Shown here in pieces: positions 27,389 through 41,530 of a stretch of DNA of 64,000 bases. The notes below the pieces were generated by a model, which saw only the letters and a list, made by a program, of their open reading frames with translations, did no database searches and was not told the origin of the DNA. The first letter of the stretch is position 1. Every line of letters starts with the position of its first letter. This DNA is from Candidatus Latescibacterota bacterium (GTDB lineage: Bacteria; Latescibacterota; UBA2968; GCA-2709665): the NCBI GenBank assembly GCA_963667175.2, contig CAXXXF010000014.1:96001-160000 (forward strand). Direction: 5' to 3'. A program made the position numbers and the translations under genes.

Positions 27389-28177
27389 CTACCACGGCCG
27401 CACCGCGGGGACTGGCTGTTCGAGGCCGTCCGCGCGAACGTTCTCGCCATTCACCCAGCGGGCGCGGTCCGACGCCAGAAACACGACCACGTCGGCGACG
27501 TCTTCCGGAGATCCGAGGCCGCCCATGGGAAATCCGTCTCTCTCGTAAGCGGCGAACACTTCCGGTTTTTCCTGACGCAACCCGTCCCACCCGCCGCCTT
27601 CGAAAATGATCGACCCCGGCGATACCACGTTTACGCGGATGCGGTCGTGCACCAGCTCGAGCGCCATGGGTTCGGCCATGAAAATCTGGGCGGCTTTGGA
27701 CGCGCCGTACTGAACCGCGCCGCTCAGCTGCGGTATCCATCCCGAGATGGACGAAATGAACACCACCGAACCGCCGCCTCGCGCTCGCATGTGAGGGACC
27801 ACGAGCCGGGTCAGCCGCACGCCGTGGAACACGTTTTTGTCGAAGGTCTCCACCCAATCCTCGTCGGTCGAATCCATCAGCCTGTCGCCGGACCGGCCGC
27901 CCACGTTATTGATGAGGACGTCGATTCCGCCAAGCCGTGCAGCGGATTCCTCCACAAACCGCTCAGCGTCGTCAGGGTCCTGCACGTCCGCCTGGATGGC
28001 GGAAACGCGAACGCCCAGCGCTTCGATTTTCGCCGCTGCCTCTTCCAACGTCTCCTCCCGCCGCGCGCAGATCGCGACGTCGCATCCCTCCGTCGCCAGT
28101 CCCATCGCCGTCGCGAGACCGATCCCGCGGTTCCCACCCGTCACCAGCGCGACTTTTCCCTTCAGATTCATATCCAT
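27389..28177 (-). CDS. SDR-family oxidoreductase
   Basis: TGGNRGIG, NNVG, YGASK. Confidence 0.92.
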   Translation of the reverse strand: MDMNLKGKVALVTGGNRGIGLATAMGLATEGCDVAICARREETLEEAAAKIEALGVRVSAIQADVQDPDDAERFVEESAARLGGIDVLINNVGGRSGDRLMDSTDEDWVETFDKNVFHGVRLTRLVVPHMRARGGGSVVFISSISGWIPQLSGAVQYGASKAAQIFMAEPMALELVHDRIRVNVVSPGSIIFEGGGWDGLRQEKPEVFAAYERDGFPMGGLGSPEDVADVVVFLASDRARWVNGENVRADGLEQPVPAVRPW

Positions 28178-28474
28178 GAAGACCTCCATTCAATTATCTA
28201 TTTTACCGTAGACTCTTCCCCACCCCACAAAATCCCGTATTCCCTTTCAAGAGGCGGTGAGACGGGAAAGAGAAGAAGGAATACGGGTTGGTCATCCTGC
28301 GGCTTATCCATTGTGTCCTGACAGGTCGCCTGTCGGCGGACAACCCACTCAAAATTGCTTTCGTGCAGGAGACAGGCCTTCGCGAATTGACGAATTGACA
28401 AAGCCAGACAATATGGATATCCAGTGGACACCGGGTGATCGTCTCCCCTCTCCCGTCTTACGTTTCACCACTCT

Positions 28475-28654: not shown

Positions 28655-29764
28655 CTAATCGGTTTTGGCAGGATGCTGAGCGCTGTCTGTTTTGAGTTTG
28701 TCTACGAAGCATCGGACGAACGCAGCGACTTCAGATAATTCCTCAGTGTAGCAAAAGCGTTCTTTTAGAGGGACCTTATATCCGTCCTCAAAATCGATCC
28801 CAAGCTCTTGTAGCAGCGTCTTTAATTTCTCCAGCTTGGAGTTATCGGGGGGCTCGGGTTCGATTCTTAGAAATACCTCAAAACGCCAACCTTTTGGGTC
28901 AATTGCGGTGTTGAACCCGATGATTTCGGAAAACGAAGAGTGCTTGAGATTATAGCAGAGAACATCATAGAGCTTGTGCGGCTCTCTCCACTTGAGCTGG
29001 CTTTCACAAATCTTGCCGACAGACTCTTCCAACTCCTTCTCGAGATCCAAAACTCTCCTGCGGAGTTCGTTCTTGAACTTATCAATTCTCTTGAAGAAAT
29101 CCGTGGCCTTTGTGAGATTGTCATCATTTTCCAGGAAACGGGCTAATTCTTCGTTCATTATCCTGCCCTCCCGCAGACCGTCAACTGTATTCAGGAAATC
29201 AAGCATGAACGTGAGATAACGGGTATTCGCTCTTGAGACTTTGTACCCGAGCTGCGATCTGACTTCGTTGAACAACTGCTCGTACGTGATATTCTTGAAC
29301 GGTTCGACGTCGCCGCCTGGTTTGAGGCTCAGAATAAACAGGTGTTTCTTGAGATGCACGTAATGCGTTTCTACGTGCTTTATATAGTCTTCAAATGGGT
29401 TGCTGATTTCGTGAAAAATCTTGTTCTCGATCACGATGGCATGGCTTTCAGACTGAATCAAGAGGTCGATCCGACTCCCCTTCCGGGTGGTTTCTTCGCG
29501 GCGGATCTGTATATCGCCACCGATCTCCCTTCCCTGTTCTCCGATGCAGCCAGCCCGCACAAGAGCATCCAGAAACAGCGTTCCGAGTCCATGCGGGTTG
29601 CCGGGATCAAGGAAGAAGGCGAGAATGTTGCTGCACACATTCTCGTAGTGAGGATAGCCTGAAATTTCCATCAACGTCGGCGGGCGCTCGGGACGCGGCG
29701 GAACCTGTTTGCTAAATTCGTCCAGGAGAGTCTGGGCAGCATCCACGTCCCATCCATCGTTCAT
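28655..29764 (-). CDS. PD-(D/E)XK nuclease-family protein (PDDEXK_4-like)
   Basis: ENVCSNILAFFLDP...HGLG, RREE...RIDLLI...IVIENKI. Confidence 0.85.
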   Translation of the reverse strand: MNDGWDVDAAQTLLDEFSKQVPPRPERPPTLMEISGYPHYENVCSNILAFFLDPGNPHGLGTLFLDALVRAGCIGEQGREIGGDIQIRREETTRKGSRIDLLIQSESHAIVIENKIFHEISNPFEDYIKHVETHYVHLKKHLFILSLKPGGDVEPFKNITYEQLFNEVRSQLGYKVSRANTRYLTFMLDFLNTVDGLREGRIMNEELARFLENDDNLTKATDFFKRIDKFKNELRRRVLDLEKELEESVGKICESQLKWREPHKLYDVLCYNLKHSSFSEIIGFNTAIDPKGWRFEVFLRIEPEPPDNSKLEKLKTLLQELGIDFEDGYKVPLKERFCYTEELSEVAAFVRCFVDKLKTDSAQHPAKTD

Positions 29765-29824: not shown

Positions 29825-30331
29825 CTATATTAGCACGTAGGGAGAATTCGCCAAGACAAACCGAGCTTTTTCACGGCGTAACATTTCAAACGGCGTCAGA
29901 CACTTGATACCGAGACCTATACAGACGCTGGGGATCTTTATCCTGTTCATAGATGGTGACGGGATCTCGTGTGTAACAACGTCATAACCACCTGCAAGCG
30001 CGTGGGCGATCAGGTAACAGTCAGCCACTTGCAGAAAAGTGTCGATGGCTGCAGCCTGGTAACCGTGGCCTCTTATCCAATCACCGACTGTTCCAAGCGC
30101 TACAAGCACCTCCATGGTCGGTTTAAGAAAAAAGGCATCGCCACGACAGTCTGCCCAAATCGCAAGGTCGTCTTCGCCGGCTGCGACTTCGTCGGCGACT
30201 TTTTCAATGCTGAAAACGATTCCCCGTTCGTTCGCCGTGACCAGCCAATTCCAGAACCCAGGACATATTTCGAAGCCGTAATGCAAGTTCTTGGCACGGA
30301 TAAAAGCGTCTGCATCAAGCAAATATGCCAT
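29825..30331 (-). CDS. DUF4411-family PIN-like protein
   Basis: YLLDAD, CPGFW, ADCYLIAHA, VVTHE, KIPSVC; directly follows the IrrE gene. Confidence 0.85.
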   Translation of the reverse strand: MAYLLDADAFIRAKNLHYGFEICPGFWNWLVTANERGIVFSIEKVADEVAAGEDDLAIWADCRGDAFFLKPTMEVLVALGTVGDWIRGHGYQAAAIDTFLQVADCYLIAHALAGGYDVVTHEIPSPSMNRIKIPSVCIGLGIKCLTPFEMLRREKARFVLANSPYVLI

Positions 30332-31480
30332 CTACGATCCCACTTTCAGACTCGTGGCAAATGCCCGTAACGTCGATACCTTCTTGATTCCGAGAAGACG
30401 GAAGGACTCGGAAAACGAAGTCCTCCCACCCAGTGTGCTGGTCACAATGGCGCCGCCAAACCGCCCACCCACACGCGCCTTGAGCGTGGGATGGAAGCTA
30501 CCACCGCTCGTCTTTTCAATGTTCCCTATTCGATCCAGTTCTCGGCCGTAGGCGGACCCAAGCGCATCACGGTCGAGCACGCCGCCATCGTGGAGCCGAC
30601 GCAGTACGACCAAGGTGCTGACTTTGAATTGGCGAGCAAGGCGGTTCAGCTGGATTGGAAGTTCCTCCCTCTTACGGTAACTCTCAAGTAAGGACCTGAG
30701 TGGTACGAGAAGCTCGGCGGCGACACGGTTGCACCAACCCTCTATTTCGTGGGCAGGCACGGAAACCACGTCAGCATCGGAAAGCGCAGATTCGCCAAGC
30801 CAGATGTGCCCGAGTTCATGTGCCAGCGTAAACATCTGTGCCGCTTTGGTGTCGGCGCCGTTAATAAAGACAAGCGGTGCAAGATCGTCGCTCAGGGCGA
30901 AGCCCCGAAACTCTTCGGGGTCCAGCCTGCGGCGGGTGTTGTTGCCAACGATCCCGCTTGTCATCACCAATACGCCCAGTGCATCGGCCTGCTGAATAAA
31001 GCGTCTTAGCGCCTCGGTCCAGGTACGTAGATCGTTCCTCTCCTCGACGTCGAAACCCAGTTCGGCTCTAATCTCTTCCGCAGTGGTCTCAACGTCGCTG
31101 CCAGTTGTAGTGGAACCCACGAACGCCAGCGGATCTTCTCCCTCAATGCGTGCATAGTCACGGTACCAATCCTGGCGCCGTAAGCAGAGATAAACAGTTT
31201 CCAAAAGTTCGACGCTGGGCCGTCCGACGAACTCATTGCCTATCGTTCGCATGTCAGGTATAGGGACCGGTTCATCAAGTGGCGCAGAGAGAAAGAACGA
31301 ACCGATCGGCGCATAGGTGACCCGGGCAAGCTTCTCCAGTTGCTTGAGCGTCGGCTGTTTCTCACCGCTTTCCCACTCAGGATACCTGGGAAATCGCTTA
31401 ACGAGAGCGTCGACGTGAATGCCCGCCCGCTCGCGCGCCCAGCGAAACATCTCCGGTTTGACATCAACGCGCAGTGTCAT
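30332..31480 (-). CDS. XRE-HTH plus ImmA/IrrE metallopeptidase
   Basis: WESGEKQPTLKQL HTH; FTLAHELGH zinc motif; EGWCNRVAAELL. Confidence 0.9.
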   Translation of the reverse strand: MTLRVDVKPEMFRWARERAGIHVDALVKRFPRYPEWESGEKQPTLKQLEKLARVTYAPIGSFFLSAPLDEPVPIPDMRTIGNEFVGRPSVELLETVYLCLRRQDWYRDYARIEGEDPLAFVGSTTTGSDVETTAEEIRAELGFDVEERNDLRTWTEALRRFIQQADALGVLVMTSGIVGNNTRRRLDPEEFRGFALSDDLAPLVFINGADTKAAQMFTLAHELGHIWLGESALSDADVVSVPAHEIEGWCNRVAAELLVPLRSLLESYRKREELPIQLNRLARQFKVSTLVVLRRLHDGGVLDRDALGSAYGRELDRIGNIEKTSGGSFHPTLKARVGGRFGGAIVTSTLGGRTSFSESFRLLGIKKVSTLRAFATSLKVGS

Positions 31481-31762
31481 TGGCGACTCCTCCATGTCCG
31501 AAAATGGCGTAGCGCTGCATCAAACCGCGCTTGATTTTCCCAATCTTCGTGAAAAGTCTCGAAGATGTGGATGAACTGCGACTCGCTTACGCCATATAGT
31601 TGCGCGATTACGGAATCTAAATTGCAAATCATAGCTTATTGTTTTTTATTTGTTTAGGCCCAGTATTTTTCTCGCTAAGGGAAAAGGGAGAAAAAAAGCC
31701 GCCGCTCGGCGCCGACAGGCCGTGCCGTTTACCGCTGCAAACTGAAACCTGCAGTTGCGACA

Positions 31763-31912
31763 CCCGGAAGCGAGAACACCTGCCTGCGCCTACCTGTCCC
31801 GTTGGAACGGCAGACAGGCCCAGTTCTGCTCAGAAGGCAGGTTTTGACCTCGATGCGCCGATGTTGGATTTGTAGGGGCAACTTTCAAAGTTGCCCGCAT
31901 ATTGGTGCGGAT
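31763..31912 (+). repeat. 150-bp palindrome-rich direct repeat, copy 2
   Basis: Colinear with 28475-28624. Confidence 0.85.
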
Positions 31913-32052
31913 GAATTTGCGTCGCGCGGCGCTGACAACCGGTACCGCTTTAACGAATGCGGAATTTATGCAAAGTCGCCAGTTGATGCAAGCGGAGACC
32001 GTATCCTGGATGGTGCAGGAAAGGTCCGGCCCTAGGAACGGCGAATTCACAC

Positions 32053-32092
32053 TTGACAGACGTAATATTACATTGTATTATTACGAAGTAAT
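32053..32092 (+). promoter_or_regulatory. Near-consensus sigma70 promoter overlapped by palindromes
   Basis: TTGACA-17-TATTAT; palindromes GTAATATTAC, CGTAATA-N11-TATTACG and ATTAC-gaa-GTAAT. Confidence 0.75.
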
Positions 32093-32124
32093 GAAATATC
32101 GTTAAATTCAGTAAAGGATAGAGC

Positions 32125-33822
32125 GTGGACCTCACGATTGCGGAATTATCCCGCGCAACTGGCAAGAGTGGAAACTACCTCCGTCAGCATATTCATCGAA
32201 AGCATCTGAAGGCGCACAGGAAGGGTCGGAGGGTTTGCGTTTCGGTTGACGAGGCGGTGCGTTGGGCGCGTGAACGGGGGCTTCCCCTTGATCTACCGGC
32301 AAACGTTGCGATCACGTCTCAACCCAAACAAGATCGTACCGCCCGAATCACAGTGCTTGCGATCCTGGAGTCCGCCGCAGTGGCGAGAAACCTATTTACG
32401 CTCCTGCGCCACAGACGCTCTGACGCGTTGGGTCCCTGGGCTGGCGAGCCTGACGGAACCTGGCATAGCAGCGACCTCGGGCAGGAAATATGGCTATTCA
32501 CATTCGATGCTCCGCTGACGCGCTGCCAGGAGTTGGTGGATGAGATCTTCGAATCTGGCACGCTGCAGATCGAGGACACTGCAGTCCATTTCGATCTCGA
32601 ACCCCACCCAAGATGCCACTGGGCTTATCGAGATGACCGACCACTGAACGACGCTTCTGTGCGCAGCCCGTTCTCAAGACATAGTGCGGAGGTAATTGAG
32701 TACTGGAGCTTTGTGCCGGATGTTCGCTCACGGTGGTTGGAGATGCTTAAGACGCAACGCGGTAAGCTTGAGTCCCGACTTAAATCGATACCGTTCCCCC
32801 TCGTCCGCGGTCCGGACCGGATCGGAAACCTGATGATCGCCGGCGCCCTGGACGAGATTACGTGTGACTTGTCAGCAAATCGTGATGGAAGCCTCCGGTT
32901 CCACTTCGACGCAGTCAATTTACACGAGAAATATCGCGCTGAGATTTGGGCGAGCCATAGCGGGGATGATGTGCTTCGGAAGGAAACACCCGTCACGCCT
33001 GGCCAAACCACTATAGAAGCCACATCCGATGTCGACGATATTGGCTTTGCGGTTTACCGTTCGACTGACGGTCAGTGCATAGATCTGATGCACGTACGTA
33101 TTGTTCTGGAGGTCCAAATTCAAATGTCGGTCGAGTCCGGTCGGACCCTACGCCATCAGATAAAGCAGGGGCCGGTCTTTTGTGTCACTCTTCCAGGCGA
33201 TCACTCCGCAACAACGGTTGAATCAGACCACGAGAGGAGCGGACTCGACAAACGTATCCGACGCCATTGGCTGGAGCAAAAGGCGTACGAACAAGAAACC
33301 ATTGCACGCCGCGACCGCAATTTCGCCCGGTTTGGTCCTGACGAGTTCGACGAAGCCGTCAGCCATTTCATTGGGTTGCTGCGTCAAAACCACGATAATA
33401 ACGACCCGGTATATTTAGCTGACCCGTACTTTATGAATCCGGCCGCAAAATCGAATTGTACAAAGCTATACTTGGAAATGTTCGCAGCGACAAAGGACCG
33501 GGAACTTAGAATTCTCTGCACAGCCAACGAGTGCCTCATAGCATCGCAGTGGTGGTGGTCGGATTTCCCCGATGAGATAACCTCACACATAAGAGTCCGG
33601 TCGTTCAGAAAACCCAATGACAAAAAAGGCGCATTTCACGATCGTTTTCTCATCACGCCCACGCACGAGACTCTCATCACTCACTCTCTAAACGGCTGGG
33701 CGACAGATGGTGTAACGTTTGCGGGCCTTCCATATGAAATCTATCGCAACGAAGCATTACACTTTTGGTCAATGGAAATAGAATCCACGAACACAGGACT
33801 CTTCGTACGGGAAGTCTGCTGA
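32125..33822 (+). CDS. HTH plus C-terminal PLD-like nuclease-domain protein (VPA1262-like)
   Basis: Excisionase/MerR-like HTH N-terminus; VYLADPYF, FHDRFLI and HSLNG motifs. Confidence 0.6.
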   Translation: MDLTIAELSRATGKSGNYLRQHIHRKHLKAHRKGRRVCVSVDEAVRWARERGLPLDLPANVAITSQPKQDRTARITVLAILESAAVARNLFTLLRHRRSDALGPWAGEPDGTWHSSDLGQEIWLFTFDAPLTRCQELVDEIFESGTLQIEDTAVHFDLEPHPRCHWAYRDDRPLNDASVRSPFSRHSAEVIEYWSFVPDVRSRWLEMLKTQRGKLESRLKSIPFPLVRGPDRIGNLMIAGALDEITCDLSANRDGSLRFHFDAVNLHEKYRAEIWASHSGDDVLRKETPVTPGQTTIEATSDVDDIGFAVYRSTDGQCIDLMHVRIVLEVQIQMSVESGRTLRHQIKQGPVFCVTLPGDHSATTVESDHERSGLDKRIRRHWLEQKAYEQETIARRDRNFARFGPDEFDEAVSHFIGLLRQNHDNNDPVYLADPYFMNPAAKSNCTKLYLEMFAATKDRELRILCTANECLIASQWWWSDFPDEITSHIRVRSFRKPNDKKGAFHDRFLITPTHETLITHSLNGWATDGVTFAGLPYEIYRNEALHFWSMEIESTNTGLFVREVC

Positions 33823-35963
33823 TGATTAAGAAGGGCCATACAGAATCCTTGCTGCCTGAAGAAGCTAAGGCCGTAGTTTGGCGGATCTTCGGCGAAGGTG
33901 AATCGCCACTGAAGGGCCGGTCAACTTTCAGCCTGATCAAGCCAATGATCGAGAAACACGTCCCTTTCCACAATCAGAATAGTGCAATTGCTGAGATCCG
34001 AGGCTGGTTTGAGTCCTACGGCGACCGCCACTGGCTCAAGTCTGAAATGGGCGAGCAGGTTGCAGTCTTGATCCTGGAGGGAATGAAAAGCGAGCGTTCC
34101 GAGAGCGCTGTCTGGGCGGTCGGCTCTATCGAACCCGATCTGGCCGCACGCATAATACGTGCCGGATGGCGCCCGCAGGAATTCGACTCGTTCGTCGATG
34201 CCACATTCAAGGCATTAAAGAAGCTATGCGATCGAAACAAGGTTCTCGACGCGGCACGCTTTCCACGCTTATCGAATCAGAATTCCAACGACGGGAGGGT
34301 CCCAACCAACGCGGTAGTGCGCCCGGGATGGCTCGCAATCTTCCAGCACCTCGACAGCCATGGTTTTGAACTCGTATACGAGGGTTTACAGCGCACCGCC
34401 GGCAATTTAATCGACCTTATATTCGACATGATGCCAGAGGAATTCGAATCCCTGCTTGGGAGGCTTGGGCACCCTGTAATGCAGGCCCGAGCGGCCAACC
34501 GCGTAATCGGAAGAACTCGAGTAAAGCAAAACCGGAAGACGCTGCAGTGGATCAAAGACGATTCCAGCGACATCCTGGTCGCACTGGCAATTGTCCATAC
34601 GTTAAACGCCGTGAACAGGCTGGATGAAGATCTCAGATACGCCGAACGCAGTAACGCAGAACACTACAATTGGAGTACCGAACTTCGCCCGCCAAGGGAC
34701 GATCTCGATTCAGCTGGAGTCGGCCTGATTACAGGTATTACTGATCGCCTGGCGGATTTCGAACCACTTCGGTGCACGCGGTGGATCGGAGAATTGCTTG
34801 GTACCGCGCCCAACATAATCCATCGAGGGGAAAATAACGAAGTCCCGAAGCGTATTAAGCAGCTTGAAGAGGCGTGTACTAAGTTGCTCGGACGCCTGTT
34901 CCGTGAATCCTGGTCTGAGGAACTGAAAGACGAACTTTGCAACGGTTTGCAGCTGGCAGGTCGAGGGACTTGGTCCCGGCATCTGGCAAGTATTGCCTGG
35001 GAGATCCGAGACGTTAAGCCTGAACGCGCAGCCGAAGTCGCAATAGCGGCTCTTCACGAAGGCGAACGACAGATCGCCGAGCAGATGAAGGAGAATCGAA
35101 TATTCCTGTACTGGAATGACTGGGAATACAGAGCGTGGATCCAAGGTCTTGGCGCTGCGCTATCGCTGTCCAGCGATGAGCTTCACCTGCCGACGTGGCT
35201 TTCGGCACGGTGTCGAGCATTGCCCTTGAGCGTTTGGGACGCAGAGGAGAATCACGAGGTCTTTCATTGCGCCGAGCGGGCTGCTCAGACCTGGTTCCTC
35301 GTTGCGTTCTCTGCGATTCCGTACCTTAATGAACTCGGCCGCTGCGTAGATCCAAATGAAGTCCGGGAACTCGCGGAAATGTGCTGGAACCACTGCGATT
35401 TCGCCAGTCTGTACGTCCGCAGCCAACCGGAAACGTCATTCGTATCAGAGTACGTCGTCCGTCTCGCCGTCGAATATGGCCATCCAAGCGATACCTGGCT
35501 CCTGAATCAGGCACGAAATCGAGGGGTCGGACCTCGCGCCTTGTGGGCCCTGATTCACCAACGAGACCAAAAGATCGCCCGGGACGGCGGAACAGCCGCC
35601 CATTATGGCCAGACGATTACAATTGAGCTTCTTCGAATCGCCGCAGATCGATTTCGCAGTGAAGGGACTTTTGACCTTGAAGAACTACGATTTTGGGGCC
35701 AATTGTGGCTTTTGCTTGGAGCCATCGATGAGTCAGAGCAGACAGCGATAGAGATCAGTTCGTTTCCCGAAAACCTTCTCGACCGTACCGACAATCTGCT
35801 GGTATTGAAGCTGCTCGCCACGGTGGCCAATCAAAGGAGGCTGTTACCCAGATTACGAGACGATGCCACGACGCTCTACCGGCAACTCTGGCCCGGTACG
35901 TACACACCTGCCGAGGAACGTGAGGACCGTACGGAGATTGACGAGCGATTCAATCGAAAGTAA
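33822..35963 (+). CDS. Large hypothetical, probably alpha-helical protein (713 aa)
   Basis: TGATG overlap with the upstream stop; long ORF with no recognised motif. Confidence 0.75.
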   Translation: MIKKGHTESLLPEEAKAVVWRIFGEGESPLKGRSTFSLIKPMIEKHVPFHNQNSAIAEIRGWFESYGDRHWLKSEMGEQVAVLILEGMKSERSESAVWAVGSIEPDLAARIIRAGWRPQEFDSFVDATFKALKKLCDRNKVLDAARFPRLSNQNSNDGRVPTNAVVRPGWLAIFQHLDSHGFELVYEGLQRTAGNLIDLIFDMMPEEFESLLGRLGHPVMQARAANRVIGRTRVKQNRKTLQWIKDDSSDILVALAIVHTLNAVNRLDEDLRYAERSNAEHYNWSTELRPPRDDLDSAGVGLITGITDRLADFEPLRCTRWIGELLGTAPNIIHRGENNEVPKRIKQLEEACTKLLGRLFRESWSEELKDELCNGLQLAGRGTWSRHLASIAWEIRDVKPERAAEVAIAALHEGERQIAEQMKENRIFLYWNDWEYRAWIQGLGAALSLSSDELHLPTWLSARCRALPLSVWDAEENHEVFHCAERAAQTWFLVAFSAIPYLNELGRCVDPNEVRELAEMCWNHCDFASLYVRSQPETSFVSEYVVRLAVEYGHPSDTWLLNQARNRGVGPRALWALIHQRDQKIARDGGTAAHYGQTITIELLRIAADRFRSEGTFDLEELRFWGQLWLLLGAIDESEQTAIEISSFPENLLDRTDNLLVLKLLATVANQRRLLPRLRDDATTLYRQLWPGTYTPAEEREDRTEIDERFNRK

Positions 35964-36135
35964 GCGGCCATTTGAGTTTTGTTTGACTATCGCGAAGAAG
36001 AGCCAACGGAAGCTGGAGGGGGGAAAGGAATTGTGCCTATATTGATTGGAAGAGAACAGGCTAAGCGCGGCTTCGCTGTACTCGGCCGCAACCAAATAGA
36101 TCGAAGTGAACGACTGAGCCCGTTTGACGTCGCAA

Positions 36136-36198
36136 TCACTCCCCCCTTGAGGGGGAGTCGCAGAAGCCGAGCCGTCAGGCGACTGATGCGGTGGGAGG
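36136..36198. repeat. Hairpin intergenic element
   Basis: ACTCCCCC-cttga-GGGGGAGT followed by GC-rich structured sequence. Confidence 0.5.
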
Positions 36199-36275
36199 AT
36201 TACAACGCGTGAACGTGGGCAATCTGCACGAATAAACATGCACGCACTTTGCGTTGAAGTCTTACTGTAAGACTC

Positions 36276-36360
36276 TAACCTCAATTCGAAAAAAGACAAG
36301 CGAAAAATCAGCCACAAAAAGCACAAAAGACACGAAGGGCATGGCTGCGAAACGGCGTGT
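36276..36360 (+). repeat. Dispersed repeat (second copy at 53848-53931)
   Basis: TAACCTCAATTCGAAAAA...AAATCAGCCACAAAAAGCACAAAAG(A/G)CAC...CGGCGTGT. Confidence 0.8.
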
Positions 36361-36385
36361 AGAGGTCGTCCGAAGGCAGGTTTTC

Positions 36386-36690
36386 TCCGTTCACGTCCAG
36401 TGACCTGAAGGTTCCTGAAATTCTGACGTCAAATCGCCTTGATTCACCTGCGTTTATTCGAATTCACGTTCCCGAAGAACTTCGAATCAAGGCTAACCTT
36501 AATTCGTCGATAATATCCGGTCAAAAGTATAGCTAAGCCAAGTGAAAACAGCAATTTCTTCCGTTGAATTGCGGCGTTCTTCCGTCCACATCCAGTGAGC
36601 TGAAGAATTACCAACTCGTGACATCAAATCGCCTGTGTTCTTACGGATATATCTCAGCGGGAACGGCATGAATATTTCGCATTAAGGCTA
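36386..36690 (+). repeat. Imperfect tandem duplication, period about 195 bp
   Basis: TCCGT.CAC.TCCAGTGA, TGAC.TCAAATCGCCT and AAGGCTAA each recur at about +195. Confidence 0.6.
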
Positions 36691-36730
36691 ATCACGTAAT
36701 AGCACCAAAACCGTCGACATCAACTACAAC

Positions 36731-37651
36731 ATGCCAATCATCTTTGTACCAGGAAAACAGACACTACAATTCTACACGGGAACCGTTGCGTATCAGATTC
36801 CCGGGATTTATCGTAGTGATGCTGGTGGACATCCGATAGAGCATATAGTCTACCAAGATTCGAACGGATACAGGGCAACGATTGTAAGCGGCCTCGTCGC
36901 GTATCTCAGGAAAACCAACTGGTCGGCGAATTATGATATAGATCAGCGGTTCGTGAGAACAGTCGACAAACGAAAAGTTGAAAACAACACATTATTTCTT
37001 GTAGAAGAGCATAAAGAAGAGTTACGCGGATTTCAATTGGAAGGGTGTTTCCAATACCCAAACGACGAAAAGGACACCATACGATTTCATAGGTCGGCAT
37101 CCAATCTCGGTGCTCCAATCGTAAAGACGAAGACGCCAATCCGAAATGCAGTCAAAGTGGCAACTCGCATTGCATTCGGCATGTGGGACATGGACTTCAT
37201 CGAGTTTGTCAGTTCAAGGTGCTATTCTACAGATGGCAAATATCTCGTATACGAGGAGAGTCAAATCGAATCTGAAACCGCTGCGTATCGAGCCTATCCG
37301 CGCAGGGCATATCAGGTGGTAAATTTGGAGTCTGATGGTATTATGACGCACGCCGCGCGTACGGAATCACTATTGTCAAACATAACGGGCAAAAATCTGG
37401 AAGGGTTGTTATCTGCGTTGCAGATTGTTTCTTCCAACGACACCTATCGGAATTGTATGCAATTTGTGTGGCTTTACGAGCAATTGAAGAAATGTATGAT
37501 TCAACTGAATGAACAAAACGTCATTGACAAGTGGGTAAAGGACCATCGAAATGAAATAGCCCACGCAGACGTGAATTACGTAGACCCTGAGATATTTCGT
37601 GAGTTACAACATTTGGCACTTAAAATCGTCATGCGGGAGAAAAAGACCTAA
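36731..37651 (+). CDS. Hypothetical protein with C-terminal HEPN-like RxxxxH motif
   Basis: Low-GC 306-aa ORF; helical C-terminus with RNEIAH. Confidence 0.6.
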   Translation: MPIIFVPGKQTLQFYTGTVAYQIPGIYRSDAGGHPIEHIVYQDSNGYRATIVSGLVAYLRKTNWSANYDIDQRFVRTVDKRKVENNTLFLVEEHKEELRGFQLEGCFQYPNDEKDTIRFHRSASNLGAPIVKTKTPIRNAVKVATRIAFGMWDMDFIEFVSSRCYSTDGKYLVYEESQIESETAAYRAYPRRAYQVVNLESDGIMTHAARTESLLSNITGKNLEGLLSALQIVSSNDTYRNCMQFVWLYEQLKKCMIQLNEQNVIDKWVKDHRNEIAHADVNYVDPEIFRELQHLALKIVMREKKT

Positions 37652-37783
37652 ACACGTGAGTACGATTGGGTTATTCTGAATTCGGCACAGTTGTAGATGA
37701 GAGATCAATGCACATGCCCGCGATGGTCGAACAACAACCTTGTCGATATTCCTGAACCGGATCGATTAACAATAAAATCTGAG

Positions 37784-38407
37784 CTATACGTCGCTCGGCT
37801 CTAATGGATCAACAGGTTTGTACTCGTCCTCGCCAAGGCTGGGAAGTTCCACGCCCTTGACGATCTTCTCACCAGCATTCATAACTGCCCTAAAGTTTTC
37901 CTTGATAATCTCCGTTCCCTCTGTACTGTCCCTATTTCCACCAGCAAACTGCCGAAGCGCAAAAGCTGCCTGGAATGCTTTCAAAAATGCTTGTCTCGCA
38001 TCAGCATCCAGGTACAGGCAGTTTCCTTGCCACCATTCCTGACACTCTAAAGCGACGCTACCTACCTCATCTTTGTTCAATACCGACCGGAGTTTCCGCC
38101 AATGCGTGTATGCTTGTTGATGAGTTTCGAGACGACGATCAAGCGCGGCAATGCTGAGTTGGTGTTTTCGCTTCGCCTGCTCGACGAGAAGGCGGTTCTG
38201 CTGAACAATCTCTTCCATCCGCTCAGAGTATACAGAGCGAACCTTTTCAATTTTGTCGGTGATCTTTGCTATATCTTGTTTAGTTGCAAGGTTTTCACCT
38301 TTCTTCCGTGCGTAGGGCGTCACGTAATTCCTTAAGATGAACAGTACTAAAATTACGAAGATACCGACAAGCTGAAGAACATCAAAATACACCGACCAGT
38401 CGCTCAT
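37784..38407 (-). CDS. Hypothetical TM plus coiled-coil protein
   Basis: TM helix then KKGENLATKQDIAKITDKIE; GAGGGG RBS. Confidence 0.7.
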   Translation of the reverse strand: MSDWSVYFDVLQLVGIFVILVLFILRNYVTPYARKKGENLATKQDIAKITDKIEKVRSVYSERMEEIVQQNRLLVEQAKRKHQLSIAALDRRLETHQQAYTHWRKLRSVLNKDEVGSVALECQEWWQGNCLYLDADARQAFLKAFQAAFALRQFAGGNRDSTEGTEIIKENFRAVMNAGEKIVKGVELPSLGEDEYKPVDPLEPSDV

Positions 38408-38689
38408 GGCAAATCCCCTCGTGTTTTGCGATCTGCTTTCAGATCTGAAGCAACTTTGCACAATTGATTTTCAGGTCGCCATTGTAGGAAAGAGCGAACT
38501 CACCCGCGATTTACCAACCTCAGGACAGGTATTAAGGTTCCGAAGCCCACAGATTGAACCTTCAGGGCGATAGCAGATAGGTACGTTTAATCGCCATCTT
38601 CGCATAGCCCGGTTCGTGATATACCTCACGCATCCTCAAAGCCAATACAGAATCGCGTTGGATCCAAGTCGGCATGTGTGTTGGCGCGA

Positions 38690-41530
38690 TCAGGTCCACG
38701 TGTCAATCCTCGTCTTCTTGCCTCCATGGACGCTTGGTTCGGCGCACCATTGGTTTCGCAAAATGGTGAGCGGTTCGAGAGCTTCTTCGGGTAGGTGCAA
38801 CAGATCCCGCAGGACGGCGCGGTCGAGGTCCTGTCGCACGTCGTCGCAATACGCCTCATTGGCCGGCAGGAATTCCTTTTCCTTGAACTGCTCAAAGATA
38901 GCCTCAGCCTGAGACAACTGCTCTTTGTTTAGAGAGCGAGGATCCAGGACCGTCAATCGCGGCAACTGAGTAATCGTCAGTCGTGCGCGGCCCTGCTGCT
39001 GTCGAGTTCCGATCCACCAGAAGCAGAGGAGTCCGAGCGTCGTGTTCGACCACAGAACCAGTGGAACGGCCCATTCCTCTCGCTCCAATATGAAGTTGGG
39101 CCATGCTGTGCCGCCGATCGCTTTGGAGGGCGTGAGGCATGCCGTGAGGCTTTGCGAGTTGATTCTGAAATCGAGATTGAAGTGTAGTTGCGAAGCCGTC
39201 CGATTCCAGACAGATACTGCTTGTTCTTCGCGGCCCTGGCGCACTTCGCCTTCGCTATCGGGAGGAACAACGAGGCTTCGTTCGCGGTTGGCATCATGGC
39301 CCCACAACGCCGGATATTCTGGTATTCCCTGGACAGGGACGATTTCAAACGGTCCACGTGGAACTCCGTCACTGCCCTTTCCTGAGATGTCGAGGTGGTA
39401 TAACCCTTCCTCGCCAAGTGAGCCGAGCCGACTCGTGAAGACCGGCGCGGAGAAACCTTGGGGCAGCCGGAGGGTTTTTTCCAACAATCCAAGAGCGGTG
39501 TTGGCGAGCGCGGTTTCGCGAAGGGATGCGCAACCGCCGTGTTTCAATGGTGCGACGATATAGGTACCGATGGTCTCTTGGTCGCCCACGCAGATGCGAC
39601 CTTGCCGAACGTGCTGAGAGACGCGACGTATTGCCCGTGCTATCTCAATGGCTTCCGCAATGCTGCGCGGTCGATGATAGAGATTCACGAAGAGTGTATT
39701 CTCTAATCCTTCTTGTCCTTCGTGGCATTTGGTGGCCACGACGAGGGCCTCGGCCATACCCGTATCAGCCGAAAAGGCCCGGTCCTTATTGCCGTAAGCA
39801 GAGATGGTAAGCACAACTACGGTCCTGTACTCGAGTTCTAGCAATCGACGTGTCCCCTGCCACGAGCTACCGATCACACACGCCGCAGGGAGCACCAGCG
39901 CAAGGACGCCACCCGGCCTCGCCTTTGTGTGCGCGAGATCTACAAAGTTCGAAGCCAACCCTGCATTGCCATGGCCTGCCAGGTGTCCGCTCTTCTTTAG
40001 CTTGGCGCAAATTCTCTTTAATCGCGTGCTCATTTGCCGCTGTTCCTCTTCGCTCGTATCCAATCCGGCAAATGACGGCACCGGCACCGATCCTTCGATA
40101 TTCTCGTGGTTGGTTGGTCGTGTAAACGGAGGATTCATAATCACCAGATCCGCTGTTTCTCGAGGGAGGTTCATGTCTTGACTCAACTCCGTTGCCACAT
40201 CCCCCTTTTTGCCGTGTGCCACCGTGGCGCCTGTCCCAAACAGTGACGGCGCAGTGTCATCCTCAATCAGATCAAGCGCCCCCAGCGCCATCCTATGGCG
40301 CTTTTCCTGACTCTGCTCTCCGTAAGGCAACGCGTGGACGCGTGTCTCGCCAAAGGTCGTGCCGGGATGCGCGCTGGACAGCATGGATGCGGTAAGGTGC
40401 GACGCAGCTGGCATAATGTCCGCCGCGATGAGGGCATTCTCCATCATGTCTCGATGCAGCGCCTGATCGGCGACCTGGAGACGAGTGAGCGCGTCAGCAT
40501 TGGACCAATCTGTTTCCGAGTCCAATCGGGATACCGCCAACTCCGCGAGCAGAGCGGCAGAAGTGGGAAGCGTGTAGAACGTGGCGAGAAACTTTCGGTC
40601 GGCGATCAGCGTTTGGAACATCCGACCGGAAAGGTCGTGCAGGGTTGTCGCACCGAGACCCGCCAGATCGCTGGCTGCCTGAGCGAGGCGATTCAACACC
40701 GCGTTGGCCGTACCATTGGGAATCGGCAGAAGCAAGTCTGAGGCGATGCGGAATATCGGATAGTAATTGATGTGATCGAGGATATGTTGCCAGCAGGCGA
40801 GCAAACGACTCTTGCTGACGTCGTTTCTCCCCGGAATTCGCAGTTGGTCGATTGTGGCAATCTCGTGGGCCTCCACAATCGCTGTGTGAAAGACAAGCGC
40901 GTTCGCGACGATTGCCATCGCCATGCGCGAGGTTTGTTCTCCATCCTCCTGATGAAGGGAATCCGCCATCTGCGCCAGCGCATTCGCGCCCGCGGACTCC
41001 CGCAACTTGTGGGCGGCTTCGCCAATGCTCTGCTCCAGAATGCGGGTTCCCTTAGCCAGTAGCCGTTCGGACAGCGAAACGTTCTCGATGAACGTGGCGA
41101 GGTCGTCGATACTTCCGGAGAGCCATCCCGCGATCGGCCAACGCAACGGCCTGTCCTTCTCTTGTAGAGAATACGTGCAATAACGGTACTCAGCGGTCTC
41201 GATCCGGTCCTTGAGGTCCGCCTGAGGCGCCTGGCTCAGGTCTTTTGGTATCTGGACGGCAATGGTCTGCTCAATCGGGTCTCCTGCGTACTTAAAACGG
41301 AATCCCAAGCGTTTCCTGGCGTCTTCTTCTACGGTACGGGCCGGTTCAAATTCGGTTTCGAGGACGACCGGGACGCCTCCCGGCGGTCGAATTACCACGT
41401 CCGGCTGGAGGCCAGGTTCCCGGAGTACGTTCGTTTGTTCCGCACTTGTGCGGTCGCGCCAGCGCGGATGTTTCGAGCGCAGTGCATTGGAGAGTTCGAA
41501 ATTGAAGGCGATTTCGCTTGTTTGGGGCAT
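38690..41530 (-). CDS. Type IIG-like restriction-modification fusion protein, SAM-binding motif I apparently missing
   Basis: N-terminal PD...ETE nuclease-like region, RKFLATFYT, DLVIMNPPF, PGGVLALVLP; no DxACGxG/FxGxG motif. Confidence 0.75.
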   Translation of the reverse strand: MPQTSEIAFNFELSNALRSKHPRWRDRTSAEQTNVLREPGLQPDVVIRPPGGVPVVLETEFEPARTVEEDARKRLGFRFKYAGDPIEQTIAVQIPKDLSQAPQADLKDRIETAEYRYCTYSLQEKDRPLRWPIAGWLSGSIDDLATFIENVSLSERLLAKGTRILEQSIGEAAHKLRESAGANALAQMADSLHQEDGEQTSRMAMAIVANALVFHTAIVEAHEIATIDQLRIPGRNDVSKSRLLACWQHILDHINYYPIFRIASDLLLPIPNGTANAVLNRLAQAASDLAGLGATTLHDLSGRMFQTLIADRKFLATFYTLPTSAALLAELAVSRLDSETDWSNADALTRLQVADQALHRDMMENALIAADIMPAASHLTASMLSSAHPGTTFGETRVHALPYGEQSQEKRHRMALGALDLIEDDTAPSLFGTGATVAHGKKGDVATELSQDMNLPRETADLVIMNPPFTRPTNHENIEGSVPVPSFAGLDTSEEEQRQMSTRLKRICAKLKKSGHLAGHGNAGLASNFVDLAHTKARPGGVLALVLPAACVIGSSWQGTRRLLELEYRTVVVLTISAYGNKDRAFSADTGMAEALVVATKCHEGQEGLENTLFVNLYHRPRSIAEAIEIARAIRRVSQHVRQGRICVGDQETIGTYIVAPLKHGGCASLRETALANTALGLLEKTLRLPQGFSAPVFTSRLGSLGEEGLYHLDISGKGSDGVPRGPFEIVPVQGIPEYPALWGHDANRERSLVVPPDSEGEVRQGREEQAVSVWNRTASQLHFNLDFRINSQSLTACLTPSKAIGGTAWPNFILEREEWAVPLVLWSNTTLGLLCFWWIGTRQQQGRARLTITQLPRLTVLDPRSLNKEQLSQAEAIFEQFKEKEFLPANEAYCDDVRQDLDRAVLRDLLHLPEEALEPLTILRNQWCAEPSVHGGKKTRIDTWT

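What the first reader, a model, noticed from the sequence alone, without database searches (positions are those of the whole stretch)
32053..35963. Two-gene operon: HTH-fused PLD-like nuclease plus a 713-aa orphan, a candidate novel defence system
Seen: a near-consensus promoter covered by overlapping palindromes. Gene 1 has an N-terminal HTH and C-terminal DPYF/HDRF/SLN motifs. Gene 2 is coupled to it by a TGATG overlap. The neighbours are PD-(D/E)XK, IrrE/DUF4411, HEPN-like and R-M genes. Known: single-motif PLD-fold domains act as nucleases in defence (BfiI, DISARM DrmC). Inference: a nuclease effector plus a helical sensor or scaffold, autoregulated by the fused HTH. The resemblance to the uncharacterised VPA1262 family is from memory.
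Basis: partly seen in the sequence, partly recalled or inferred. Interest (0 to 1): 0.75.

Follow-up and report, generated by a model that had tools for sequence, protein, structure and literature searches.

The report
HTH-PLD enzyme plus helical partner
A two-gene cassette found in defence islands and mobile elements of many uncultured bacterial phyla pairs a probably self-repressing DNA-binding protein that carries a phospholipase-D-type domain with a large helical partner, and it is a distant, differently built relative of the recently reported Juno anti-phage family.

Summary
The operon is real. A TTGACA-17-TATTAT promoter (11 of 12) is overlaid by two GTAAT-ATTAC-type palindromes. Gene 1 is 32125-33822 (565 aa). 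Gene 2 is 33822-35963 (713 aa) and is joined to gene 1 by TGATG.

Gene 1 has a Xis/MerR-type HTH, an Arg/His-rich domain, a beta-sandwich and a C-terminal PLD-fold domain (Z 10-12 to PPK, NucT, Zucchini, Nuc, BfiI). The PLD domain carries invariant DPYF, H505-D506-R507 and S521. Gene 2 is a confident all-alpha HEAT-like solenoid with no family match.

Gene 2 follows gene 1 in 18 of 18 related loci with room for it. The two proteins co-evolve (r 0.94), and one fused homologue exists. The operator motif travels with the promoter in 13-16 of 20 loci.

Flanks hold R-M or Abi genes in 8 of 18 loci and integrase, transposase or relaxase in 7 of 18.

Gene 1's beta-sandwich and PLD part is homologous to the VPA1262 N-terminal-domain family (hhalign 98%). 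A 2026 preprint reports full-length VPA1262 as the anti-phage system Juno. Neither gene reaches either NCBIfam cut-off, and the helical partner is unrelated to the partners of that family.

Best reading: an autoregulated, PLD-effector defence or anti-mobile-element module, a new variant of a known kind. No phenotype or enzyme activity has been shown.

The parts
32053..32081 (+). sigma-70-type promoter, TTGACA-17-TATTAT
   Evidence: 11 of 12 matches, the best site in 31400-36800. A TTGAC -35 element sits 9 nt before the first operator copy in 7 loci (window, L001, L002, L003, L007, L011, L016).
32061..32085 (.). operator: two GTAA-N2-TTAC-type palindromes (32062-32071 and 32075-32084), 13 nt apart, covering the spacer and the -10 element
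   Evidence: Inverted repeat of 12 nt, 92% complementary. The strict motif lies upstream of gene 1 in 13 of 20 loci and the relaxed motif in 16 of 20. The remaining 427,479 nt hold 2 strict and 7 relaxed copies.
32113..32118 (+). Shine-Dalgarno-like AAAGGA, 6 nt before the GTG start
   Evidence: Read directly from the sequence.
32125..33822 (+). gene 1, 565 aa: HTH, Arg/His-rich domain, beta-sandwich, linker helix and PLD-fold domain
   Evidence: ORF and translation. 531 homologues at E<=1e-3 among 8000 scored candidates. AlphaFold2 model with pLDDT 72.8.
32125..32277 (+). residues 1-51: Xis/MerR-type (excisionase-family) helix-turn-helix
   Evidence: HTH_17 at E 1.2e-3. 19 of 31 family members hit HTH_17 at E<=0.1. 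Structure matches: Pukovnik Xis Z 7.3 and BldC Z 7.1. R20, Q21, H22, R25, H27 and L28 are invariant.
32326..32784 (+). residues ~68-220: highly conserved Arg/His-rich alpha/beta domain of unknown fold. Its first part (about 68-133) is specific to this family.
   Evidence: Invariant R71, R74, N89, R95, H96, R97, W105, H165, R169, S181-P182-F183, E192 and W194. No structural or Atlas match.
32830..33111 (+). residues ~236-329: Ig-like beta-sandwich
   Evidence: Z 7-9 to the beta-sandwich domains of GH2 enzymes, a generic match. This part is homologous to the VPA1262_N_dom family.
33112..33312 (+). residues 330-396: low-confidence linker ending in a conserved helix (372-396)
   Evidence: pLDDT below 50 over 328-396, although R379 and E391 are invariant.
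33313..33804 (+). residues ~397-560: single PLD-fold domain. Motifs: DPYF (33421-33432), H505-D506-R507 (33637-33645), S521-L-N523 (33685-33693).
   Evidence: VIA-align: Z 12.0 PPK, 11.9 PLD, 11.4 NucT, 10.6 Zucchini, 9.9 Nuc, 9.7 SauUSI, 8.6 BfiI. Foldseek: PLD3/4 and NucT. Transitive sequence link: the homologous N_dom family hits Pfam PLDc_2 in 27 of 30 members.
33822..35963 (+). gene 2, 713 aa: all-alpha solenoid. Its start overlaps the gene 1 stop (TGATG).
   Evidence: AlphaFold2 pLDDT 86, pTM 0.80, about 36 helices. The C-terminal half resembles HEAT/ARM repeats, for example importin-beta at Z 13.1, which is within the generic range for helical repeats. No Pfam, NCBIfam, PADLOC or PDB sequence match.

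Best explanation
This is a horizontally mobile, two-protein immunity-type module, most likely directed against phages or other mobile elements.

Step 1, regulation (inferred, with strong comparative support). A dimer of gene 1 binds through its Xis/MerR-type HTH to two GTAA-N(1-2)-TTAC palindromes. These lie between and over the -35 and -10 elements of its own near-consensus promoter, so the operon is held at a low, self-limited level.

Step 2, co-expression (shown from the sequence; binding is inferred). Gene 2 is translationally coupled to gene 1 through the TGATG overlap and is made with it.

Step 3, effector (fold shown, chemistry inferred). The C-terminal PLD-fold domain of gene 1 carries one HKD-like motif with Arg in place of Lys: H505-x-R507, then S521-x-N523. 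As in the single-motif enzymes Nuc, BfiI and Zucchini, it would need a homodimer to build one active site. That site would cleave phosphodiester bonds, most probably in nucleic acid.

Step 4, sensing (inferred). The 713-aa alpha-solenoid acts as the sensor or scaffold that keeps the enzyme off until a trigger appears.

The cassette is a divergent branch of the VPA1262 N-terminal-domain superfamily, whose full-length members were recently reported as the Juno anti-phage system.
For: Anatomy.

PLD fold. 15 of the 18 best VIA-align rows are PLD-superfamily chains (recognised from recalled knowledge of these entries), with Z 8.6-12.0 over residues 390-564. Foldseek agrees.

Conservation. H505, D506, R507 and S521 are invariant in 31 sequences of about 50-70% identity.

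Homology to VPA1262_N_dom. hhalign gives 98.0% probability, E 2e-13, over 301 columns, aligning residues 220-548 to 201-538. Both families share the DPYF, HDR and SLN motifs. 27 of 30 members of that family hit Pfam PLDc_2, best E 5e-8. One of its plasmid members is annotated 'phospholipase D family protein'.

Gene linkage.
- Gene 2 lies directly downstream in 18 of 18 loci with room; the 19th locus is cut by a contig end.
- The stop/ATG overlap T[AG]ATG occurs in 12 of the 16 loci examined, plus the window.
- Pairwise identity matrices correlate at r 0.938, with 0 of 5000 Mantel permutations as high.
- One homologue of 1236 aa is a gene 1-gene 2 fusion.

Operator. The strict motif lies in the 110 nt upstream of gene 1 in 13 of 20 loci. 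It occurs only twice in the other 427 kb. Copies are 13 nt apart in 8 loci. The HTH recognition-helix residues are invariant.

Context.
- The window lies in a low-GC island at about 12-44 kb. The island holds PADLOC candidate PDC-S26 (E 6.5e-87), an IrrE/M78 plus DUF4411 pair, an IetA-like AAA ATPase with a WYL regulator, a GIY-YIG protein and a transposase.
- In related loci, R-M or Abi genes lie within 6.5 kb in 8 of 18: L001 and L007 (type I R-M gene clusters; in L001 the cassette lies between hsdS and hsdR), L004/L009 (AbiE plus a Pycsar-type TIR protein), L010, L011, L013 and L017.
- Integrase, transposase or relaxase genes occur in 7 of 18.

Patchy distribution. Homologues occur in 6 of 168 genomes of the phylum and in 0 of 14 other genomes of the genus. 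In-phylum identity is only 52-55%, the same as across phyla.

Precedent. [quoted passage not shown]
Against: - No phenotype, enzyme activity or binding has been measured for this family.
- The HKD-like motif is not canonical. It has Arg for Lys and Pro512 where the canonical Asp sits, and N523 is not invariant. Only 1 of 31 members touches Pfam PLDc_2, at E 0.051.
- The PLD fold also occurs in non-catalytic sensor domains (TrmB, FAM83) and in polyphosphate kinase, which are among the best structural matches.
- Neither gene matches any PADLOC model at a meaningful E-value.
- Neither gene reaches the NCBIfam cut-offs for VPA1262 models.
- 4 of 18 related loci (L003, L006, L008, L015) show no defence or mobile-element gene nearby, and no background rate was computed.
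- L004, L009 and L012 share flanking genes, so they are not independent.
- Gene 2 shows no relation to the partners of the N_dom family (hhalign 0.1%).
Confidence: 0.6

Rival explanations
1. An addiction or stabilisation module of mobile elements (toxin-antitoxin-like). The PLD enzyme would be a toxin, held in check by the helical partner and by autorepression, that stabilises islands, ICEs or R-M cassettes rather than sensing phages.
For: - Tight two-gene coupling and an autorepressed promoter are typical of type II TA operons.
- The cassette lies beside a relaxase and coupling protein in L014, integrases in L001 and L010, and IS elements in L002, L005, L018 and L019.
- Three of 19 loci show decay of gene 1: an insertion in L018, a frameshift in L012 and stop codons in L014.
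Against: - The proteins are far larger than classical TA pairs.
- The DNA-binding domain sits on the putative toxin, not on the partner.
- Many such modules also act as abortive-infection systems, so this reading overlaps with defence rather than excluding it.
Confidence: 0.15
2. A transcription factor with a non-catalytic PLD-like ligand-sensing domain, as in the archaeal TrmB family (HTH plus a PLD-fold sugar-binding domain). It would regulate gene 2, whose function would then be the real output.
For: - TrmBL2 and TrmB are among the top structural matches: Foldseek ranks 1-7 and VIA-align Z 8.3-8.4.
- The architecture is the same in outline: an N-terminal HTH and a C-terminal PLD fold.
- The conserved operator is present.
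Against: - The residues at the HKD-equivalent positions (H505, D506, R507, S521) are invariant across the family and in the distant N_dom family. That pattern is expected for an active site.
- Catalytic PLD enzymes score higher than TrmB: Z 10-12 against about 8.4.
- N_dom relatives lack the HTH but keep the motif.
Confidence: 0.1
3. A recombination or excision accessory of integrative elements. An excisionase-type HTH fused to a nuclease-like domain would act on element ends.
For: - The HTH matches the excisionase-family models (TIGR01764 at E 4e-4) and phage Xis structures.
- Integrases lie nearby in L001, L010 and L014.
Against: - The binding sites sit on the cassette's own promoter, not at element ends.
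- Most loci have no integrase within 6.5 kb: 15 of 18.
- In L001 the cassette sits between type I R-M genes (hsdS and hsdR), and in L007 directly after hsdS.
Confidence: 0.05

Closest known systems
VPA1262 N-terminal-domain family (NCBIfam NF040700), about 500-600-aa proteins on plasmids and chromosomes
   Same: - The beta-sandwich, linker and PLD-fold domain are homologous (hhalign 98%, E 2e-13, 301 columns).
- Both share invariant DPYF, H-D-R and S-L-N motifs.
- Both are followed in the same operon by a large hypothetical protein. For N_dom this holds in 6 of 6 plasmid loci, with partners of about 595-660 aa, 3 of them after an extra small gene.
   Different: - Gene 1 scores 37.8 bits against a cut-off of 80.
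- It has an N-terminal HTH and about 65 further family-specific residues (about 68-133) of the Arg/His-rich domain. The profile alignment with N_dom begins at about residue 220 and the HMM match at 134.
- It has Pro512 where N_dom keeps the canonical Asp (HDRFLVID).
- Its partner (gene 2) shows no relation to the N_dom partners (hhalign 0.1% against a thin 6-sequence profile).
Juno, the full-length VPA1262 family (NCBIfam NF040699, 1026-position model); anti-phage activity reported in bioRxiv 10.64898/2026.08.01.741415
   Same: - It belongs to the same superfamily by way of the N-terminal domain. True N_dom proteins touch NF040699 only at the HDR region, at E 2e-5 to 3e-3.
- It is found in variable islands rich in defence genes.
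   Different: - Juno is one polypeptide of about 1000 aa, whereas this is two genes with an HTH.
- Neither gene matches NF040699: no hit at E<=1 and none in the whole genome at E<=10.
- The passages of the preprint that I read give no domain analysis or mechanism; 'PLD' occurs 0 times.
- I could not obtain a Juno sequence, so I could not compare its C-terminal half with gene 2.
Single-HKD PLD-superfamily nucleases (Nuc, NucT, BfiI, Zucchini, SauUSI N-domain); PLD domains in defence (DISARM DrmC and Mokosh MkoB, both recalled)
   Same: - The fold matches over about 130-150 residues at Z 8.6-11.4.
- There is one motif per chain, implying a dimeric active site. This follows from established knowledge of Nuc and BfiI and was not tested here.
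   Different: - The motif is HxR(x)4P(x)8SxN rather than HxK(x)4D(x)6GSxN.
- There is no sequence-level match to any solved structure and almost none to Pfam PLDc_2 (1 of 31 members).
- There is no PADLOC match to DrmC or MkoB.
TrmB / TrmBL2 regulators (HTH plus PLD-fold effector domain)
   Same: The order of a DNA-binding domain followed by a PLD-fold domain is the same. They are the top Foldseek matches.
   Different: - The HTH is of another type (a winged helix there, Xis/MerR-type here).
- Two extra domains lie between the HTH and the PLD fold.
- This family keeps an invariant His-x-Arg and Ser at the catalytic positions.

Membership tests
VPA1262_fam / Juno (NF040699) | Score at or above the curated cut-off (325 bits) of the full-length model | tested here: not met
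   No hit at E<=1 for either gene. 0 hits at E<=10 in the whole 5.52-Mb genome.
VPA1262_fam / Juno (NF040699) | Single polypeptide of about 1000 aa | tested here: not met
   Two genes of 565 and 713 aa. Only one fused homologue (P0243, 1236 aa) was found among longer proteins.
VPA1262_fam / Juno (NF040699) | Protects against phages when expressed | not testable with these tools
   Reported only for two full-length VPA1262 proteins.
VPA1262_N_dom (NF040700) | Score at or above the curated cut-off (80 bits) | tested here: not met
   37.8 bits, E 9.6e-10, residues 134-441. True members score 201-208 bits.
VPA1262_N_dom (NF040700) | Homologous beta-sandwich plus PLD-like region with DPYF, HDR and SLN motifs | tested here: met
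   hhalign A1 against A3: 98.0%, E 2e-13, 301 columns. Motifs.
PLD superfamily (HKD enzymes) | PLD fold | tested here: met
   Residues about 396-560: Z 12.0 (rmsd 3.0, 139 aa) to PPK, 11.4 to NucT, 10.6 to Zucchini, 9.9 to Nuc and 8.6 to BfiI. This rests on a predicted model with pLDDT about 65-89 in this part.
PLD superfamily (HKD enzymes) | Canonical HxK(x)4D(x)6GSxN motif | tested here: not met
   The sequence reads H505-D-R507-F-L-I-T-P512 ... T-H-S521-L-N523. His and Ser are invariant, Lys is replaced by an invariant Arg, Asp is replaced by an invariant Pro, and Asn varies. The canonical motif itself is recalled.
PLD superfamily (HKD enzymes) | Match to Pfam PLDc_2 / PLDc | tested here: not met
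   The window protein has no hit at E<=1. 1 of 31 family members hits at E 0.051. The homologous N_dom family hits in 27 of 30 members.
PLD superfamily (HKD enzymes) | Homodimer forming one active site; phosphodiesterase activity | not tested
   No homodimer prediction or assay was run.
Excisionase / MerR-type HTH (Pfam HTH_17, TIGR01764) | Family HMM at or above the cut-off | tested here: not met
   HTH_17 scores 19.5 bits against 27. TIGR01764 scores 20.6 against 28.8. 19 of 31 members hit HTH_17 at E<=0.1.
Excisionase / MerR-type HTH (Pfam HTH_17, TIGR01764) | Fold of the Xis/BldC-type DNA-binding domain | tested here: met
   Pukovnik Xis Z 7.3, rmsd 1.4 A, 50 aa. BldC Z 7.1. 6hn7 Z 6.8.
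Any system in PADLOC-DB v2.0.0 | Significant match of either protein to a system model | tested here: not met
   Best hits: mad1 at E 1.8e-3 (HTH only) and a type IV Cas11 model at E 7.9e-3.

The most novel reading that the evidence does not exclude
The cassette may be a one-piece 'tethered effector' switch. A dimeric HTH-PLD enzyme would be parked, inactive, on its own operator. The alpha-solenoid partner would detect a phage or plasmid product and release or activate it. A single event would then both derepress the operon and unleash the enzyme.

A bolder variant concerns the chemistry. The His-x-Arg PLD domain, whose best structural match is polyphosphate kinase, might not be a nuclease at all. 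It could be a phospho-histidine transferase or hydrolase acting on a nucleotide or polyphosphate substrate. That would also give the first mechanistic handle on Juno.
Probability: 0.15. Interest if true: 0.8.

Novelty: new variant of a known kind. Interest (0 to 1): 0.6.

Why it matters
- The family is large: 531 gene 1 and 411 gene 2 homologues at E<=1e-3 among the scored candidates.
- It has spread by horizontal transfer across lineages that span at least ten phyla by my recalled taxonomy of the record titles.
- It was found only in uncultured metagenome-assembled genomes. It is absent from 72,556 plasmid records (gene 1 only was searched) and from 50,697 phage records, and it is not covered by PADLOC v2. 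Discovery pipelines built on isolate genomes would therefore miss it.
- It links an uncharacterised two-gene cassette to the just-reported Juno family. It also proposes what the conserved core of that superfamily is: a PLD-fold domain with a His-x-Arg motif. The passages of the preprint that I read do not say this.
- The conserved promoter-operator pair and three invariant candidate catalytic residues make the model directly testable.

Tried and rejected
- Complex prediction. Gene 2 (full length) with gene 1 residues 330-565 gave no verdict, score 0.00. This is no evidence either way. Full-length gene 1 did not fit the size limit.
- Expression. No RNA holder was listed among public runs.
- Sequence search of solved structures with both family profiles found nothing: best hits ferritin at E 0.22 and a radial spoke protein at E 0.33.
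- Protein Atlas. Gene 2 gave only hits under 0.9. Gene 1 residues 60-235 gave no usable hit.
- Fold of gene 2. Only generic alpha-solenoids appeared: Foldseek TM<=0.27 and VIA-align Z<=13.1, within the generic range for helical repeats. No specific family can be named.
- The viral structure library with gene 1 returned only poxvirus PLD-like envelope proteins and small HTH proteins.
- The idea that gene 2 equals the partner of N_dom operons, or the C-terminal half of Juno, was not supported. hhalign A2 against two single partners and against a 6-sequence profile gave probabilities of 0.2% or less. NF040699 does not hit gene 2.
- I could not obtain a full-length VPA1262 sequence. The best 150 of 698 representatives found with an N_dom query are all 604 aa or shorter.
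- tblastn of gene 1 against plasmids, and of both genes against phages, found no match.
- Rfam and tRNA scans of the window found nothing.
- No + strand terminator-like site was found after gene 2.

Full report
**1. What is in the sequence**

The region 32053-35963 holds one operon on the + strand. A sigma-70-type promoter, TTGACA-17 nt-TATTAT (32053-32081), matches 11 of 12 consensus positions. It is the best of 8 promoter-like sites in 31400-36800, where shuffles give a mean of 4.0.

An inverted repeat lies over the promoter's spacer and -10 element. Its arms are 32061-32072 and 32074-32085, 12 nt each and 92% complementary. Each arm contains a 10-bp palindrome of the type GTAAT-ATTAC, starting at 32062 and 32075, 13 nt apart.

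Gene 1 starts with GTG at 32125, 6 nt after an AAAGGA site, and ends at 33822 (565 aa). Its TGA shares one base with the ATG of gene 2, which runs 33822-35963 and encodes 713 aa.

- Confirmed: PD-(D/E)XK (28655-29764, minus strand), DUF4411 (29825-30331, minus) and IrrE/M78 (30332-31495, minus).
- Not confirmed: the 'HEPN-like and R-M' genes. The ORFs between 36731 and 44058 match nothing in Pfam, PADLOC or NCBIfam.

**2. Gene 1**

Family libraries see little. Pfam HTH_17 matches residues 3-51 at E 1.2e-3, below the gathering score. An excisionase-type domain matches at E 4e-4. NCBIfam NF040700 (VPA1262_N_dom) gives a sub-threshold match: 37.8 bits against a cut-off of 80, E 9.6e-10, residues 134-441. 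PADLOC gives nothing meaningful.

An AlphaFold2 model built on 31 homologues (mean pLDDT 72.8) shows five parts.

| Residues | Part | Evidence |
|---|---|---|
| 1-51 | Xis/MerR-type HTH | Pukovnik Xis Z 7.3, rmsd 1.4 A over 50 aa; BldC Z 7.1 |
| ~68-220 | alpha/beta domain, the most conserved part of the protein, rich in invariant Arg and His |; no structural or Atlas match |
| ~236-329 | Ig-like beta-sandwich | Z 7-9, generic |
| 330-396 | low-confidence linker that ends in a conserved helix | |
| ~397-560 | PLD-fold domain | see below |

For the PLD-fold domain, 15 of the 18 best rows of the Foldseek-independent search are PLD-superfamily chains (a recognition from recalled knowledge of these entries). 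They include polyphosphate kinase (Z 12.0), a PLD (11.9), FAM83A (11.9), vaccinia F13 (11.4), NucT (11.4), Zucchini (10.6), Nuc (9.9), SauUSI (9.7) and BfiI (8.6). Foldseek agrees, returning PLD3/4, NucT and TrmBL2.

Set against the canonical HxK(x)4D(x)6GSxN motif (recalled), the family reads HxR(x)4P(x)8SxN. His and Ser are kept, Lys becomes an invariant Arg, Asp becomes an invariant Pro, and the Asn varies. The fold is shown, on a predicted model. The chemistry is inferred.

**3. Gene 2**

The model is confident (pLDDT 86, pTM 0.80) and entirely helical, with about 36 helices. Its C-terminal half superposes on HEAT/ARM solenoids, for example importin-beta at Z 13.1 with rmsd 7.5 A. That lies within the range the tool itself calls generic for helical repeats. 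No Pfam, NCBIfam, PADLOC, PDB-sequence or Atlas match exists. The gene is not an orphan in the sense of lacking relatives: 411 homologues reach E<=1e-3 among the scored candidates.

**4. The two genes are one unit**

A scan of one genome per prokaryotic species returned 19 loci.
- Gene 2 lies directly downstream of gene 1 in 18 of the 19. The remaining locus (L016) ends at a contig edge inside gene 1.
- The stop codon of gene 1 overlaps an ATG (T[AG]ATG) in 12 of the 16 loci examined, as in the window. L013 uses an ATGA overlap instead.
- Across the window plus 15 loci with intact pairs, the pairwise identity matrices of the two proteins correlate at r 0.938. None of 5000 Mantel permutations reached that value, and r is 0.915 without the outlier L019.
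- Among longer proteins, one homologue of 1236 aa is a gene 1-gene 2 fusion, 44% and 45% identical to the two genes. It is a single metagenomic sequence and could be an assembly frameshift.
- Three loci show decay of gene 1: an insertion of about 1.4 kb in L018, a frameshift in L012 and two in-frame stops in L014.

**5. The operator is conserved**

The strict motif GTAA-N(1-2)-TTAC occurs in the 110 nt upstream of gene 1 in 13 of 20 loci (window plus 19). A relaxed form occurs in 16 of 20. The remaining 427,479 nt of all these sequences hold only 2 strict and 7 relaxed copies.

In 8 loci two copies lie exactly 13 nt apart. In the 7 of these that have a TTGAC -35 element, the first copy starts 9 nt after the start of that element. 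The four loci with no match to either form are L009, L012, L013 and L019.

The residues of the HTH recognition region (R20, Q21, H22, R25, H27, L28) are invariant. The site covers the spacer and the -10 element, and gene 1 carries the only DNA-binding domain of the operon. Together these points make autorepression by gene 1 the natural reading. It is inferred, not shown.

**6. Context and distribution**

The window's cassette lies in a low-GC stretch at about 12-44 kb: GC 0.43-0.60 against about 0.59-0.65 outside. That stretch also holds:
- a PADLOC candidate system, PDC-S26 (E 6.5e-87);
- an IrrE/M78 plus DUF4411 pair;
- an IetA-like AAA ATPase with an HTH-WYL-WCX regulator;
- a T5orf172 GIY-YIG protein;
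- a Mutator transposase.

In the related loci I scanned ORFs of at least 130 aa within 6.5 kb of the cassette. That was 157 of 171 candidate ORFs; 14 outer or syntenic ones were left out.
- R-M or Abi genes occur in 8 of 18 loci. L001 and L007 hold type I R-M gene clusters: in L001 the cassette lies between hsdS and hsdR, and in L007 directly after hsdS. L004 and L009 lie between AbiEi/AbiEii and a Pycsar-type TIR protein. L010 has an EcoRI-type methylase and GmrSD. L011 has a type ISP enzyme. L013 has a helicase, DUF4391 and a methylase. L017 has an MmeI-type enzyme.
- L012 adds a Phd antitoxin and an AAA ATPase with a WYL regulator.
- Integrase, transposase or relaxase genes occur in 7 of 18 loci (L001, L002, L005, L010, L014, L018, L019).
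- Four loci show neither (L003, L006, L015 and the short L008).
- L004, L009 and L012 share flanking genes and are not independent. I did not compute a background rate.

The loci come from lineages that, by my recalled taxonomy of the record titles, span at least ten phyla, and all are metagenome-assembled genomes. Gene 1 has no match in the plasmid collection, and neither gene has one in the phage collection.

Within the window's own phylum, 6 of 168 genomes have gene 1, and 0 of 14 other genomes of the genus do. The in-phylum copies are only 52-55% identical, no closer than copies in other phyla. This pattern indicates an accessory, horizontally transferred cassette.

**7. Relation to VPA1262 and Juno**

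True members of NF040700 were found in the same phylum (three proteins scoring 201-208 bits) and on plasmids (7 hits, one annotated 'phospholipase D family protein'). A search of 1.84 billion representatives found 698 at E<=1e-3.

A 30-sequence alignment of that family has invariant D-x-Y (DPYF), H-D-R, W, G and S. Its consensus is HDRFLVIDxxVWLSGNSLN. 27 of the 30 members hit Pfam PLDc_2, best E 5e-8. Only 1 of 31 members of the gene 1 family does so.

Profile-profile comparison of the two families gives 98.0% probability, E 2e-13, over 301 columns. It aligns gene 1 residues 220-548 with N_dom residues 201-538. The beta-sandwich, linker and PLD domain are therefore homologous. The HTH is specific to gene 1, and the profile alignment does not reach the Arg/His-rich domain (the weaker NF040700 HMM match begins at residue 134).

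N_dom genes are also followed by a large hypothetical protein of about 595-660 aa in 6 of 6 plasmid loci examined. In 3 of them an extra small gene intervenes. These partners show no relation to gene 2: probabilities of 0.2% or less against two single partners and 0.1% against a thin 6-sequence profile.

The full-length model NF040699 (1026 positions) matches neither gene and nothing else in the genome.

A preprint of August 2026 (10.64898/2026.08.01.741415; I read section 12 and the passages found for 'Juno', 'phospholipase' and 'PLD') renames full-length VPA1262 proteins Juno. [quoted passage not shown] The passages I read give no domain analysis, and its supplements are closed.

Of the other three papers that contain 'VPA1262', I read passages of one (10.1101/2023.03.28.534373), which mentions the gene only as part of an island. 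For the other two I saw the search listing only. A further search for PLD, HTH and two-gene anti-phage systems (listing and abstracts only) showed nothing that describes this cassette.

**8. Mechanism and alternatives**

The best-supported model (confidence about 0.6) is a self-repressed defence-type module. A dimeric HTH-PLD enzyme is the effector and the alpha-solenoid is its sensor or scaffold.

| Status | Claims |
|---|---|
| Shown | operon anatomy; co-conservation; conserved operator; island and mobile-element context; homology to the N_dom superfamily |
| Shown on a predicted model | PLD fold; HTH fold; solenoid |
| Inferred | autorepression; dimeric active site; phosphodiesterase (probably nuclease) activity; binding of the two proteins; protection against phages or other mobile elements |

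Rival readings:
- An addiction-type stabiliser of mobile elements (0.15). This overlaps with abortive-infection defence.
- A TrmB-like regulator with a non-catalytic PLD-fold sensor (0.10). The invariant His-x-Arg and Ser argue against it, since they are kept even in the HTH-less N_dom relatives.
- An excision accessory (0.05).

The non-canonical motif and the top structural match to polyphosphate kinase leave open a chemistry other than DNA cleavage.

**9. Verdict**

The cassette is not a member of either curated VPA1262 family by their cut-offs. It is a divergent branch of that superfamily with a new architecture: a fused HTH, an extra N-terminal domain and an unrelated helical partner. I rate it a new variant of a known kind, with interest 0.6.

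Noticed in passing
window 12000-44000: A low-GC island (GC 0.43-0.60 against about 0.59-0.65 outside). It holds PADLOC candidate PDC-S26 (28655-29764, minus strand), an IrrE/M78 plus DUF4411 pair (29825-31495, minus), an IetA-like triple-AAA ATPase of 929 aa (21896-24685, minus) with an HTH-WYL-WCX regulator (24831-25955, minus), a T5orf172 GIY-YIG protein (18921-19757, minus) and a Mutator-family transposase (17433-18719). No tRNA or integrase marks its ends.
   Followed up: partly
window 36731-44058: Several ORFs have no match in Pfam, PADLOC or NCBIfam. They include a 946-aa ORF (38690-41530, minus strand) and lie in the lowest-GC stretches of the window (0.43-0.46). They may be further unknown island cargo.
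   Followed up: no
L012:14769-19355 and window 21896-25955: An AAA ATPase together with a WYL/WCX regulator lies near the cassette both in the window and in L012. This could be a co-travelling module or coincidence.
   Followed up: no
L028-L033 (plasmids of Azospirillum, Klebsiella, Burkholderia, Methylorubrum, Rhizobium, Bradyrhizobium): VPA1262_N_dom genes sit in two- or three-gene operons with an unannotated partner of about 595-660 aa, 3 of them with an extra small gene between. In Methylorubrum the operon lies next to a SIR2-family gene. These operons look like uncharacterised split relatives of Juno.
   Followed up: partly
L024 and L026 (G136, G141): Open frames of 1655 and 1690 aa carry a weak match to the PLD/HDR part of NF040700 only (positions about 320-457, E 3e-11 and 8e-9). 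This is a third architecture for the same domain.
   Followed up: no
L018:8566-10000, L012:10147-10162, L014:5337-5480: Gene 1 is disrupted in 3 of 19 loci: an insertion of about 1.4 kb amid IS elements, a frameshift near residue 51-55, and two in-frame stops at residues 18 and 46. Gene 2 stays open in all three.
   Followed up: partly
window 26703-28189 (minus strand): The 384-aa HhH-GPD ORF and the 266-aa short-chain dehydrogenase ORF overlap by about 470 nt on the same strand, so the true start of the glycosylase-like gene is probably further downstream.
   Followed up: no
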